Source of the DNA: Eledone cirrhosa
Lineage: Eukaryota
Assembly (NCBI GenBank): GCA_964016885.1
Contig: OZ024743.1
Location: 149,854,001 to 149,918,000, forward strand
Length of the DNA: 64,000 nucleotides
Direction: 5' to 3'
In this document: positions 37,328 through 57,980 of the stretch, piece after piece
Layout: each line of letters begins with the position of its first letter
Position numbering within the stretch: position 1 is the stretch's first letter
Made by a program: the position numbers and the translations under genes
Notes under the pieces: model-generated
The model's database searches: none
Told to the model about the DNA's origin: nothing
What the model saw: the letters and a program-made list of their open reading frames with translations, nothing else

Positions 37328-37332
<5 letters not shown>

Positions 37333-38248
37333 TGCATACAAACAGCAATGTTGCATGGCAGTGAGACCTGGGCATTGTGTGCAGAGGATATACGCAGACT
37401 AGAGAGGAATGAAGCTTGCATGCTCCGCTGGATGTGTAATAGTAATATACGTGAACGGCAAAGCATAAACAAACTAAGGGAAACATTAGAAATAAGAGGG
37501 ATCAGATGTTGTTTACTCGAGAGAAGGCTACGTTGGTATGGTCACGTGATGCGCATGAAAGACGACAGCTGTATAACAAAGTACAGGGCAATAAAGATAG
37601 ATGGTAGCCACGGAGTAGGCAGACCCAGAAAAACCTGGGACGAGCTGATAAATTCCGACCTCACACACTTACACCTCTCCAAGACAATGTCACTGGACCG
37701 AGACCTTTGGCGGTACTCAGTAATAGAGAAGACCCGCCTTACCTAAATACAAAGTAAAACCTACTACAGTCAGTAGGCATCTCTAACAAAATACACCCCG
37801 TCCCACCACCCCCACCCCATCCACACCGCCCCTTTCAATGTAAAGTTATGTTGGTGCCACAACATCCAGGCCGAAACAAATGAGATTGTGTAGGTGTCAC
37901 GATAAAAAAACACACAGTCCACGCTGTAATGTGGCCGTGTAGGCAACACGGTAAAAACCTCCCAGTCCCACACTGTAAATGTGGTTGGTGTTAGGAAGGG
38001 CATCCAGCTGTAGAAAACCCGCCAGACAGTCCACGCTGTAATGTGGCTGTGTAGGCAACACGCTAAAAACCTCCCAGCCCCACACTGTAAATGTAGTTGG
38101 TGTTAGGAAGGGCATCCAGCTGTAGAAAACCCGGCAGACAGTCCTATACGAGCAAGACAACCACTCTTGCGTCAAGTGGGAAAACTCCCGTCCAAACCCA
38201 TGCAAGCGTGGAACATGGACGTTAAACGATGATGATGATGATGATGAT
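37328..38248 (+). mobile_element. Young 5'-truncated RTE LINE, copy 1 (ORF end plus long structured 3'UTR and (GAT)n tail)
   Basis: TAMLHGSETWAL...LERNEACMLRWMC...RRLRWYGHVMRM...GRPRKTW...DRDLWR, stop at 37744-37746; flanked by (TA)n. Confidence 0.95.
37914..38137 (+). repeat. 112-bp tandem duplication in the RTE 3'UTR
   Basis: ACAGTCC recurs at 37914, 38026 and 38138; copy 2 of the LINE has only one unit. Confidence 0.92.
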
Positions 38249-46756: not shown

Positions 46757-47837
46757 CATCATCATCATCATCATCAACGTTTAACGTCCGTGTTCCACGC
46801 TTGCATGGGTTTGGACGGGGGTAGTCCCACTTGAGGCAAGAGTGATTGTCTTGCTCGCATAGGACTGTCTGGCAGGTTTTCTACAGTTGGATGCCCTTCC
46901 TAACACCAACCACATTTACAGTGTGGGTCTGGGAGGTTTTTACCGTGTTGCCTACACGGCCACATTACAGCGTGGACTGTGTGTTTTTTTGTCGTGACAC
47001 CTACACGATCTCATTTGTTTCGGCCTCGAAGGCGCGGCACCAACATAACTTTACATAGAACGGGGTGGTGTGGATCGGGTGGGGGTGGTGGTGGTGGGAC
47101 GGGGTGTATTTTGTTAGAGATGCCTACTGGCTGGAGTAGGTTTTACTATATATTTAGGTAAGGCGGGTCTTCTCTGTTACTGAGTACCGCCAAAGGTCTC
47201 GGTCCAGTGACATTGTCTTGGAGAGGTGTAAGTGTGTGATGTCGGAGTTTATCAGCTCGTCCCAGGTTTTTCTAGGTCTGCCTATTCCGTGACTACCGTC
47301 TATCTTTATTGCCCTGCACTTTGTTATACAGCTATCGACTTTCATGCGCATCACGTGTCCATACCAACGTAGCCTTCTCTCGAGTAAACAACATCTGATC
47401 CCTCTTATCTCTAATTTTTTCCTTAGTTCGTTTATGCTTTGCCGTTCACGTATATTACTGTTACACATCCAGCGGAGCATGCAAGCTTCGTTCCTCTCTA
47501 GTCTGCGTATATCCTCTGCACACAATGCCCAGGTCTCACTGCCATGCAGCATTGCTGTTCGTATGCAGGCATCGTACAACCTGCCTTTCATTTTTAGTGA
47601 GAACCCTTTAGCAGCTAATAGTGGTATAAGCTCTCTGAACTTTTTCCAACCAGTTCTGACTCTAGCTACAGTACTTTCAGAGCACCCTCCCCCACTGCTG
47701 ATTTTATCGCCCAGGTAACGGAAGCTGTCCACTATTTCTATAGAACCCTCTGCGCAATTGAAAGAGCTAGTAGTTTGTGGGCACTTGCTGCTACTTATTG
47801 CACCAGAGCACCGGCCACATGTAAAATCTATGTTCTT
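46755..47837 (-). mobile_element. Young 5'-truncated RTE LINE, copy 2 (open ORF 47154-47837 plus 3'UTR)
   Basis: FTCGRCSG...IEIVDSFRYLGD...ARVRTGWKKFREL...KGRLYDACIRTAMLHGSETW...RLRWYGHV...GRPRKTW; closely matches copy 1. Confidence 0.95.
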
Positions 47838-53313: not shown

Positions 53314-53397
53314 GTAACACCTGCTCAAGGTGCCACGCAGTGAGACTAAACCTGAAAACACGTGGTTGAGAAACGAACTCCATCACCACACAACCGT
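52895..53397 (-). mobile_element. tRNA-derived SINE family D with internal microsatellite, interrupted by a truncated SINE A (52935-53023)
   Basis: Reverse tRNA-like head at 53320-53397; body ATCGACC...GGTAC.TAT...CGAACCGCTAAGTTAC; tail GACTGCGGTCATGCTG. CAATAAT is duplicated around the nested SINE. Confidence 0.7.
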
Positions 53398-53698
53398 ATG
53401 GGGCCGATAAATAAAGTATCACTAACGCAGTGGGGTCGATTTAATCGACTTTCCCTTTCTCCCAAAATTGTTGCCCGTATGCTTAAATCAGATACCATGA
53501 TATGATTTTCGGTGGATTGGCAGTATCGGTAGAGAGGCGGACACCATGCTTTGAAGCATAGAGTTACGTCCCTTTATGATCTGAGTTCAAATCCCGCTGA
53601 GGTTAACTTTGCCTTTCATCCTTACGGGGTCGATAAAATAAAGTACCAGTAATGTACTAGGTAATTTGGTGGCCTTGTGCCTAAAATAGAAACAATTA
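53395..53698 (+). mobile_element. Two tandem SINE A copies (long-variant 3' half 53395-53498; young full copy 53510-53698)
   Basis: TSD AT(G/T)ATATGATTTT at 53497-53509 and 53695-53707. Confidence 0.9.
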
Positions 53699-53724
53699 TA
53701 TGATTTTATATATATATTATATAT

Positions 53725-53805
53725 ATATTTAATATAGAAATGGCTTCTACAGGACTAGAACTGTTACTTACTGTGGTTACCCTCAATTGAACCAGGGATA
53801 AACTT
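53725..53805. mobile_element. Internally deleted copy of the 57632-57827 hammerhead element
   Basis: Identical left arm ATATTTAATATAGAAATGGCTTCTACAGGACTAGAACTGTT joined through GTT to the 3' end ACTTACTGTGGTTACCC..ATTGAACC.GG.ATAAACT; sits in (TA)n. Confidence 0.85.
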
Positions 53806-53916
53806 ATATATATATATATATATGTAGAGGTTATATTTAATTTGTTGGGATACAACAAGCAAAATATTTTTATAACTGATATAAAGCACTCAACAAATTA
53901 TTGGAGTAAATATACA

Positions 53917-54411
<495 letters not shown>

Positions 54412-55418: not shown

Positions 55419-55597
55419 CTGGCAGTATCGGTAGACGGTTGGACGCCATGCTTTCTAGTATAGTTATGTCCCTTTACAGTCTGAGTTCAAATCCCGCCGA
55501 GGTTAACTTTGCCTTTCATCCTTACGGAGTCGATAAAATAAAGTACCAGTAATGTACTGGGTAATTGATGGCCTTGTGCCTAAAGTAGAAACAATTA
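55419..55597 (+). mobile_element. SINE family A, young short variant
   Basis: A/B boxes, family core and tail; CpGs intact. Confidence 0.92.
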
Positions 55598-55603
55598 TAA
55601 TAT

Positions 55604-56180
55604 TAATATGTGTAGAACACAGTAAACCCATGTCTAAAATTACGAGGGTAGATTACACCAGAAATGTTATATATCATTCAACCTGAATCATATGGGATGT
55701 TACAAGATTTCTTATAAGATTTCTCATACATACCATATCAATAACCATTTCATCTCCCGGACAGACTAAAGCTTTAATCTGTTTCGCCCTGAAGGAATCG
55801 TGTTTGTAACAAGTAATCCGTAGGCTTGAGTGTAAATAGGCTATTATTTCTAGCAAAACCACTTGCACCGCATATGACTTTCAACACACGAGGTGTAAAC
55901 TTTAGTGAGTTTATTGTTATGTAACATTTAGTCTTATCTCTCGCTGACGAAATGCCTACGGATTACTTGTTACAAACACGATTCATTCAGGGTGAAACAG
56001 ATTAAATCTTTAGTCTGTCCGGGAGATGAAATGGTTATTGATATGGTATGTATGAGAAATCTTGTAAGAAATCTTGTAACATCCCATATGATTCAGGTAG
56101 AATGATATATAACATTTGTGGTGTAATCTACCCTCGTAATTTTAGACACGGGTTTACTGTGTTTACTTCTACACATATTA
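55604..56180. mobile_element. Fold-back element (arms 55604-55825 and 55954-56180, 128-bp spacer); Penelope-like pLTR remnant
   Basis: About 220-bp inverted repeat with few substitutions and one 5-bp indel; contains a hammerhead; right end abuts (TA)n. Confidence 0.85.
55934..56029 (+). ncRNA. Type I hammerhead ribozyme candidate
   Basis: Stem I TTATCTCTCG/CGGGAGATGA (10 bp, 2 G-U); CTGACGA 55944-55950; GAAA 55994-55997; stem III ACAGATTAAA-TC-TTTAGTCTGT; GUC cleavage triplet 56017-56019. The base of stem II is imperfect. Confidence 0.8.
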
Positions 56181-56240: not shown

Positions 56241-56593
56241 ATCATCATCATCATCATTATTTCATTTTACGTCCGCTTTTCCCTGTTTGCAAGGGTGGGA
56301 CGGGAACTGATTCTGGCTTGATTTCTACAGCTGGATGCCCTTCCTAACATCAACCTCATTTACAGTGAGTGCTGGGTGCTTTTTTGCCGTGGCACTTACA
56401 CGTCGACTTAACTTCCACTTTACAATGATATGGACCCCAGTCCCTATCATCTCATTTCTACAGCTGAGTAAACTGGAGCAATGTGAAATAAAGTGTCTTG
56501 CTCAAGGAAACAACACATCACCTGGTCTGAGAATTGAACACACAATCTTTCGATTGCCAGGCCAATGCTCTAACCACTAAGCCATGTGCCTCC
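56241..56593 (-). mobile_element. Full-length SINE family B
   Basis: Reverse of the 47864 copy; flanked by (TA)n. Confidence 0.92.
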
Positions 56594-57209: not shown

Positions 57210-57550
57210 TGCACACACATATATACACATACATATGGATACACACAGTCATACAGGCATATATATATATGCTTACTAAATTAAATTTTGCACTATATAC
57301 AATGTTATACCTTATTTGTACGTGAATGCTAATGTTCTAATATTGCCCGTTACCTTGCAAAAGGGCTAATTGAAATGTGTACTGTTGAACATCTAAACAA
57401 CATAAACATGGAAACAACATAAACTATATCAAACGAATATTTATTTTAATATCTGTATATATATATATATATATAGATTATGTTATTTCCAGTATATTTA
57501 TGTTTAATTGTGCTCCCACATGCACATATAAATATGTATGTATATATATA

Positions 57551-57631
<81 letters not shown>

Positions 57632-57635
<4 letters not shown>

Positions 57636-57824
57636 TTAATATAGAAATGGCTTCTACAGGACTAGAACTGTTTCGGGTGAAATCATCAGGAAGCTTCCCG
57701 ATGATTTCTCCCGAATGAAACAGTTCTAGTCCTGTAGAAGCCATTTCTATATTAAATATTTACACTCTTCTATGTATTGAGTACGTTACTTGCTGTGGTT
57801 ACCCCTGATTGAACCCGGAATAAA

Positions 57825-57827
<3 letters not shown>
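57632..57827. mobile_element. Head-to-head double-hammerhead palindrome (57632-57759) plus 3' extension, in (TA)n
   Basis: 43-bp perfect outer arms centred on GGAAGCTTCC (57689-57698). Both strands read GCTTC-C(T/C)GATGA-TTTC.CCC..GAAA-CAGTTCTAGTCCTG-TA-GAAGC. Confidence 0.85.
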
Positions 57828-57905
<78 letters not shown>

Positions 57906-57949
57906 ATATATACACATATATATACATGCATATGTATGTATATATATAT

Positions 57950-57980
<31 letters not shown>

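What the first reader, a model, noticed from the sequence alone, without database searches (positions are those of the whole stretch)
57632..57827. Ambisense double-hammerhead palindrome with complementary defects
Seen: a 128-bp palindrome centred on GGAAGCTTCC encodes a minimal type I hammerhead on each strand, sharing stem I (GCTTC/GAAGC) and stem III (ACAG-TTCTAGTC-CTGT, GUA site). The + copy has CCGATGA instead of CTGATGA. The - copy has an intact CTGATGA but lacks 4 nt of stem II. Together they reconstruct GCTTC-CTGATGA-TTTC(T/A)CCCGAAT-GAAA-CAGTTCTAGTCCTG-TA-GAAGC. Inference: the inversion arose by cDNA fold-back at the short palindrome just 5' of the ribozyme.
Basis: partly seen in the sequence, partly recalled or inferred. 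Interest (0 to 1): 0.72.

Follow-up and report, generated by a model that had tools for sequence, protein, structure and literature searches.

The report
Cap-marked head-to-head Penelope insertion stub
This palindrome is one decayed copy among thousands of short mirror-image stubs of a Penelope-type jumping gene, and the stubs' fixed start point and extra G suggest that each was likely written from both cut DNA ends up to the capped start of the element's uncut RNA, not folded back at a ready-made palindrome.

Summary
The 128-bp palindrome and both defects are real, but the defects are decay in one copy. It is a head-to-head pair of front ends of a Hydra-clade Penelope-like retroelement inside (TA)n. 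An exact 31-mer occurs 4,510 times, 163 of 254 copies keep CTGATGA, and a sister subfamily leads into a 713-aa Hydra-type ORF. Inverted ends with hammerheads on both strands are published. GGAAGCTTCC is not in the native element; the junction creates it. Arm ends pile up at the first base of stem I (99 of 155 at +1 to +10, 6 at -1 to -9), 30 bases behind a TATA box (26 of 28). Arms joined to A/T flanks carry a non-native G in 87 of 122 cases. Either arm can reach further, which argues against simple fold-back. Best reading: two cDNAs run off the capped, uncut RNA and are joined. I did not find this in print, but the scan noted the same reading before on other DNA. Cleavage and transcription start are untested.

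The parts
57632..57694 (-). Inverted arm: element positions +2 to about +68 (short 3' end), merging into (TA)n
57693..57825 (+). Forward arm: element positions +2 to about +134 (long 3' end)
57689..57698 (.). Junction palindrome GGAAGCTTCC; the arms overlap by the self-complementary GC at 57693-57694; absent from the native element
57693..57741 (+). Hydra-type type I hammerhead with U4-to-C change (57699); predicted cut after 57736; likely inactive
57650..57694 (-). Hydra-type hammerhead with intact core but 4-nt deletion of the 3' strand of stem II; likely inactive
57760..57825 (+). One-sided tail (about 66 nt) between the family's two fixed 3' ends; part of the 5' leader of the element (ATG at +182 in the full-length sister subfamily)
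57526..57631 (.). (TA)n/(CA)n target, left flank
57826..57980 (.). (TA)n/(TG)n/(CA)n target, right flank; no target-site duplication can be read

Best explanation
This is a decayed short insertion of a Hydra-clade Penelope-like retroelement, two copies of the element's hammerhead-bearing front end joined head to head in a TA repeat, likely made when the element's enzyme primed one cDNA from each cut target strand and both ran to the capped 5' end of an uncut RNA. Shown from sequence: family, copy number, head-to-head anatomy, two fixed 3' ends with the long one nearly always on one side only, a sharp 5' edge at the first base of stem I, a TATA box at -30, and a non-native G at that edge. Inferred: +1 is the polymerase II start; the G is a copy of the cap; copying starts internally at about +68 and +135 of the leader; the two cDNA 3' ends anneal through 0-3 nt of microhomology (here GC with GC) or short linkers and are filled in. 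Because the hammerhead is the first ~50 nt of the RNA and copying starts just behind it, run-off stubs are the default product, and full-length copies would need a transcript that reads into a downstream pLTR. The templates of these stubs span the predicted cut at +45, so they were not cleaved. The window copy is predicted to be inert as a ribozyme.
For: Family link: 12 of 12 long-ORF loci have the arm (84-86% identical) directly before the ORF, 713 aa from the ATG in the 758-codon frames; 8 of 8 followed downstream end in a second pLTR stopping at the same two 3' ends. Position-ordered sample of 93 insertions: 62 have an adjacent inverted arm; 55 of these 62 pair a long with a short 3' end; 99 of 155 arm ends lie at +1 to +10 (25 at +1, 17 at +2) and 6 at -1 to -9. 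TATAAATAC begins at -30 in 26 of 28 native copies, across subfamilies whose spacer has diverged; the -1 base is C in 27 and T in 1. Genome-wide, arms that reach +1 and abut six A/T bases have G at -1 in 87 of 122, C in 5, A/T in 30 (hand count); in the younger subfamily, whose +1 is A, G 47, C 24, A 9, T 20 in the first 100 of 390 (hand count). Symmetry: the short arm reaches further 5' in 32, the long arm in 19, equal in 4 of 55; among the 28 with both ends at +1 to +12 it is 12:13:3 (hand count). Loop-free GC junctions recur (110 exact loci). Stem I covaries between subfamilies (GGCTTC/GAAGCC 36 copies, AGATTC/GAATCT 44). Internal starts, cutting of both strands, a predicted dimer and use of uncut RNA were reported in vitro for an anole element (PMC11167929).
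Against: No RNA data: the start site, the cap and cleavage were not observed. The extra G could be a cap-independent terminal addition, and a few native copies have G at -1 (L049 and about 4 rows). About 29% of the A/T-flanked arms and half in the younger subfamily lack the G. Palindromes lose their centres after insertion, which could symmetrise junctions that began as fold-backs; several sampled loci have large central deletions. The two arms are nearly always the same subfamily (48 of 55 within one base in loop II, against 38% for random pairs), which fits fold-back as well as one RNA copied twice. The arm caller is crude: it misses inverted arms under ~15 nt, makes a few doubtful calls (L102, L143, L144), and two apparent duplicate pairs (L081/L130, L083/L084) were left in. 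Pfam did not recognise the RT or endonuclease of the 713-aa protein; the clade call rests on motifs compared by eye.
Confidence: 0.66

Rival explanations
1. One cDNA, primed at the long end, reaches the RNA 5' end, folds back on itself and copies itself to the short end (fold-back or self-priming, as the first reader and PMC3846280 suggest); later central deletions blur the junctions.
For: Arms are nearly always the same subfamily and a few share private variants (L021, L022, L024, and loop II of L108, L150, L153). GG...CC at +1/+6 offers a 2-bp fold-back, and that junction is common.
Against: A cDNA cannot supply sequence it lacks: the tail-less arm reaches further 5' in 32 of 55 (12 of 28 near-edge cases). 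Loop-free junctions recur. One locus shows both arms at +1, each with its own extra G (C1:106097375-106097413). No native palindrome exists at the turn.
Confidence: 0.2
2. The short palindrome is itself a mobile non-autonomous unit (MITE-like or retrozyme-like) copied from a few masters, with ribozymes working on both strands.
For: High copy number; some junction classes recur exactly (110 loci).
Against: Junctions are heterogeneous (23 classes among 32 near-edge pairs), the tail is on either side, copies are not tandem, the stubs lack the promoter, and the predicted hairpin (-90 kcal/mol) excludes both ribozyme folds.
Confidence: 0.06
3. The 5' edge marks stalling of the enzyme at stem I or processing of the RNA there, not a capped transcription start.
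For: The edge coincides with the 5' strand of the most stable helix (pair probabilities 0.92-1.0).
Against: The enzyme has already passed the 3' strand of that helix; the -30 TATA spacing is conserved across diverged spacers; a single non-native G is the usual cap signature (PMC9341517, passages); the hammerhead cut lies at +45, not +1.
Confidence: 0.08

Closest known systems
Hydra clade of C-terminal EN+ Penelope-like elements (Craig et al. [quoted passage not shown]
   Same: DKT, CxCX5C linker, C-terminal CxxC and CxH, (TA)n target, hammerhead of the form ctgatgat-stem II-tgaa with acag/ctgt stem III (File S2); Penelope-13_HM has an inverted copy with the hammerhead listed on both strands.
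   Different: A different family: four probes of its hammerhead and protein found nothing in the supplement. RWR for RWK; 8-nt loop III with a CTAG palindrome where the listed ones have 1-3 nt; only 3 bp of stem II; unit of about 4.8-5.7 kb with a microsatellite-rich 3' region rather than under 3 kb.
Inverted-pLTR insertions with one-sided tail and junction palindromes (Arkhipova et al. 2013, PMC3846280)
   Same: Head-to-head arms, palindrome at the junction, tail at one end, TATA box in the pLTR.
   Different: That paper proposes self-priming on an antisense template; here the junction maps to a likely capped sense-strand start and is symmetric. The tail is about 66 nt, not 30-40.
Poseidon element PAc in vitro (Frangieh et al. 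2024, PMC11167929)
   Same: Two internal starts that define the tail, AT-rich target, both strands cut and extended, uncut RNA as main template, protein-assisted hammerhead.
   Different: Different clade; starts there lie inside the ORF, here in the leader; the parts I read do not explain the inverted arm or mention a cap copy.
Minimal hammerheads of metazoan PLEs (Cervera and de la Pena 2014, PMC4209133)
   Same: Type I hammerheads in pLTRs, mostly dispersed single motifs; pairs on opposite strands 100-700 bp apart are mentioned.
   Different: This motif has a full stem III and U-U in place of G10.1-C11.1.

Membership tests
Hydra-clade PLE | Single ORF, RT then C-terminal GIY-YIG, no N-terminal EN | tested here: inconclusive
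   713-aa ORF with YRDD and a C-terminal VY..YIG motif read by eye, matching published Hydra proteins by eye; Pfam gave no RT or GIY-YIG hit; weak match to a Neptune-like ORF, E 6e-5. The ORF is from a sister subfamily (84-86% in the arm); the window stub has none.
Hydra-clade PLE | DKG modified to DKT | tested here: met
   SSDKT in L201 and L203 (definition)
Hydra-clade PLE | RWK motif | tested here: inconclusive
   RWR at the matching place: conservative change
Hydra-clade PLE | CxCX5C linker; CxxC and CxH around the conserved E and N | tested here: met
   CNCLNKEAC, CDLC and CMH present
Hydra-clade PLE | CCHH motif absent from EN | tested here: inconclusive
   No CxxC between the VY and YIG motifs, but two more widely spaced cysteines are there; no alignment made
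Hydra-clade PLE | (TA)n insertions and canonical hammerhead in the pLTR | tested here: met
Hydra-clade PLE | Generally short (under 3 kb) | tested here: not met
   pLTR-to-pLTR about 4.8-5.7 kb in three loci worked out, owing to a microsatellite-rich 3' region; a descriptive rather than diagnostic trait
Hydra-clade PLE | Phylogenetic placement of RT | not tested
   No reference proteins were available as tool sequences
EN+ PLE insertion architecture | Inverted 5'-truncated copy with the tail at one end only | tested here: met
   62 of 93 with inverted arm, 55 of 62 long/short; also on full-length copies L207, L208 and L203
Minimal hammerhead (min-HHR) | Helix III absent or 1-2 bp; G10.1-C11.1 pair | tested here: not met
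   4-bp stem III with 8-nt loop; U-U at the base of stem II (definition)
Type I hammerhead ribozyme | Self-cleavage at NUH | not testable with these tools
   Core and stem I covariation present; predicted stem II competes with pairing to the core GAA (pair probability 0.07-0.19)
Non-LTR retrozyme | Tandem units each with a hammerhead | tested here: not met
   Head-to-head, not tandem; traced to an ORF-bearing element (definition)

The most novel reading that the evidence does not exclude
In Hydra-clade Penelope elements the hammerhead begins at the very first transcribed base, and the thousands of genomic palindromes are a fossil record of a two-ended priming reaction: the enzyme cuts both strands, starts one cDNA at each of two leader sites on capped, uncut RNA, copies the cap as a G, and the two run-off ends are joined. 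This would explain the inverted pLTR and one-sided tail without antisense self-priming, and would give the ribozyme the role of removing the cap and first 45 nt to decide between stub and full-length products.
Probability: 0.5. Interest if true: 0.6.

Novelty: new member of a known kind. Interest (0 to 1): 0.36.

Why it matters
The locus itself is ordinary debris. The family data bear on an open question that the field states openly: how Penelope-like elements make their inverted repeats and tails, and what their hammerheads do (PMC8557442). The fixed edge, the TATA spacing, the extra G and the symmetric junctions give specific predictions for an existing in vitro system, and intact young ORFs are available for it.

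Tried and rejected
Neptune assignment: an RT/GIY-YIG ORF next to a pLTR in L049/L061 first looked like the parent, but its full-length relatives end at their own 3' terminus and do not carry this pLTR; it is another family sitting in the microsatellite. My first notebook entry states that link and is wrong. Rfam: no hammerhead hit, only AT-repeat microRNA noise. PDB sequence search: one hit at E 0.55. Structure-pair count: my bracket string was out of register, result discarded; covariation is taken. One RNA versus two: arm comparison inconclusive (11 shared and 181 single variants in 55 pairs, no shared A-to-G; some 'shared' ones are subfamily or indel artefacts). The automatic classes (G in 18 of 21 'free' arms) misfiled several rows, so the genome-wide counts are used instead. 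Sequencing runs: no RNA holder listed; no reads were laid. No Atlas look-alikes were obtained for the ORF. Literature searches for twin priming with Penelope, cap or untemplated bases with Penelope-like, cap structure with extra G, head-to-head palindromes and octopus hammerheads found no statement of the two-ended or cap-copy model; subscription papers (for example Evgen'ev and Arkhipova 2005, Pyatkov 2004, Schostak 2008, seen only as citations) were not searched.

Full report
Observation. Window 57632-57759 is a 128-bp palindrome centred between 57693 and 57694; the arms differ by one core substitution (+ arm CCGATGA), one loop II substitution and a 4-nt deletion in the - arm. The + arm continues for 66 nt to 57825 and both ends lie in TA/CA repeats.

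It is one of thousands. A DNA search of the own genome (3.0 Gb) gave 3,854 candidates, 40 scored; an exact 31-mer has 4,510 matches and its control 0. Among 254 distinct hammerhead-like copies in the fetched loci (up to 4 substitutions allowed), 163 keep CTGATGA and 3 have CCGATGA; loop II varies by subfamily while the stems stay, and stem I covaries (GGCTTC/GAAGCC in 36, AGATTC/GAATCT in 44). The same 4-nt deletion appears independently in L042. The window's defects are therefore decay, and a transcript through the locus is predicted to form one hairpin of about -90 kcal/mol on either strand. The host is likely an octopus; that is my inference from genome size and repeat landscape, not a tested result.

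Parent element. A first lead was wrong: the RT/GIY-YIG ORF beside a pLTR in L061 belongs to another family. An ORF start seen behind the tail in L011 and between inverted pLTRs in L062 led to the right one. I fetched 12 of the 150 matches, chosen for long open frames; all 12 have the arm (84-86% identical to the window) directly before the ORF, 713 aa from the ATG in the 758-codon frames, and 8 of 8 followed downstream end in a second pLTR that stops at one of the same two 3' ends. The protein has DKT, CxCX5C, CxxC and CxH, which section 11 of PMC8557442 gives as Hydra-clade marks, and resembles by eye the Hydra proteins of its supplement. The hammerhead has the ctgatgat/tgaa form of File S2. 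The family itself was not found in that supplement. Pfam does not recognise the protein and I built no tree.

Where the inversions lie. I took the first 100 listed matches, in position order on C1, as 95 loci, dropped two (L065, same insertion as L064; L080, duplicate of L079) and mapped arm ends on natural reference copies with +1 at the first base of stem I. Of 93 insertions 62 have an adjacent head-to-head arm; 55 of the 62 pair a long 3' end (about +110 to +136) with a short one (mostly +57 to +76). Of 155 arm 5' ends, 99 lie at +1 to +10 (25 at +1, 17 at +2), 6 at -1 to -9, 13 further upstream and 37 downstream. The anchor excludes forward arms that start beyond about +25 but does not disfavour upstream extension, so the edge at +1 is real. 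Native copies have no palindrome there. The window's junction, two arms ending at +2 and overlapping by GC, is 3 of 62 in the sample and 110 exact loci genome-wide.

The edge looks like a capped RNA start. TATAAATAC begins at -30 in 26 of 28 native copies and at -32 in 2, in subfamilies whose spacers differ; the -1 base is C in 27 and T in 1. CCAAT boxes lie further up. Arms that reach +1 and abut six A/T bases have G at -1 in 87 of 122 cases, C in 5 and A or T in 30 (hand count of complete listings; binomial p about 1e-26 against 0.25). In the younger subfamily, where +1 is A, the first 100 of 390 matches give G 47, C 24, A 9, T 20 (hand count); some of the C rows can come from the partner arm. 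A 5' untemplated G is read as a cap copy for L1 (PMC9341517, three passages). A cap-independent terminal addition would look alike but would still mark the end of the template.

Fold-back or two primers. A cDNA that folds back can only copy what it holds, so the tailed arm should always reach furthest 5'. The tail-less arm does so in 32 of 55, the tailed arm in 19, with 4 equal; among the 28 pairs with both ends at +1 to +12 it is 12:13:3 (hand count). Loop-free junctions recur, and one locus has both arms at +1 with an extra G each. Against this, later deletions at palindrome centres could produce symmetry, and the arms are nearly always the same subfamily (48 of 55), which fits fold-back or one RNA copied twice. 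The in vitro work on an anole element reports cutting and extension of both strands, two internal starts that bound the tail, a predicted dimer and uncut RNA as the main template (PMC11167929, parts 1-2 of 4 read). My best model joins these: two target-primed cDNAs run off at the cap and are joined by microhomology (confidence 0.66). The stubs span the predicted cut at +45, so their templates were uncut; the predicted weak stem II, which competes with pairing to the core GAA, agrees with a slow or protein-assisted ribozyme. Small hairpins are predicted just behind each 3' end, a lead taken from earlier scan notes and only folded on two copies here.

Known and new. Inverted pLTRs, one-sided tails, junction palindromes and hammerheads on opposite strands are published (PMC3846280, passages; PMC4209133, parts 1-2 of 4; PMC8557442, passages, section 11 and supplement parts). 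The retrozyme definition is from bioRxiv 10.64898/2026.07.22.740005 (part 1 of 5; its supplements are closed). My searches found no printed two-ended or cap-copy model for these elements, but older subscription papers are outside the library. I reached the reading before consulting the scan's notes; those notes then showed that the scan has described twin-primed Penelope palindromes many times (385 findings hold the search words), the cap G with TATA spacing in two other genomes, and Hydra-clade stubs in this genome. These are unchecked and count as no support.

Verdict. Real, but an ordinary decayed copy of a known architecture in a Hydra-clade family that seems unnamed. The value lies in the family-wide evidence on mechanism. 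Interest 0.36; new member of a known kind.

Noticed in passing
window 54001-54286: A second head-to-head palindrome (120-nt arms, 98%, 46-nt spacer) in (TA)n with a hammerhead core on both strands (54204 +, 54083 -); a different family with a longer stem II.
   Followed up: partly
window 55616-56163: A third palindrome (210-nt arms, 97%, 128-nt spacer) with a hammerhead-like fold at about 55933-56030 + (CTGACGA, long stem II, long stem III with a near-palindromic loop); likely another Penelope-like family.
   Followed up: partly
window 53722-53808: Another stub of the same family as the finding: short inverted arm joined inside stem III to the end of the tail.
   Followed up: partly
L170-L177 (G000 C1, C2, C3, C4, C7, C1298): A young high-copy Penelope-like family with many open 775-codon frames (RVT_1 and GIY-YIG hits, CxxxxCxxC linker, Neptune-like), a long open frame in the 5' region (476 codons in L176) and a hammerhead-like motif near its 3' end that also has T at both sides of the base of stem II.
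   Followed up: partly
L201-L209, L240-L247: The young Hydra-type subfamily keeps many intact ORFs, and its 2-3 kb region between ORF and promoter is largely TA/TG microsatellite carried inside the element.
   Followed up: partly
L011, L029: Short units in which the tail and the start of the ORF or leader are followed again by the hammerhead: partial tandems, possibly retrozyme-like derivatives.
   Followed up: no
window 55420-55609, 53391-53717, 56500-56591 and many other places: Abundant dispersed SINE-like repeats, one with a weak tRNA match.
   Followed up: no
window 37328-38032 and 46862-47572: A 711-bp inverted repeat pair at 94% identity about 9 kb apart.
   Followed up: no
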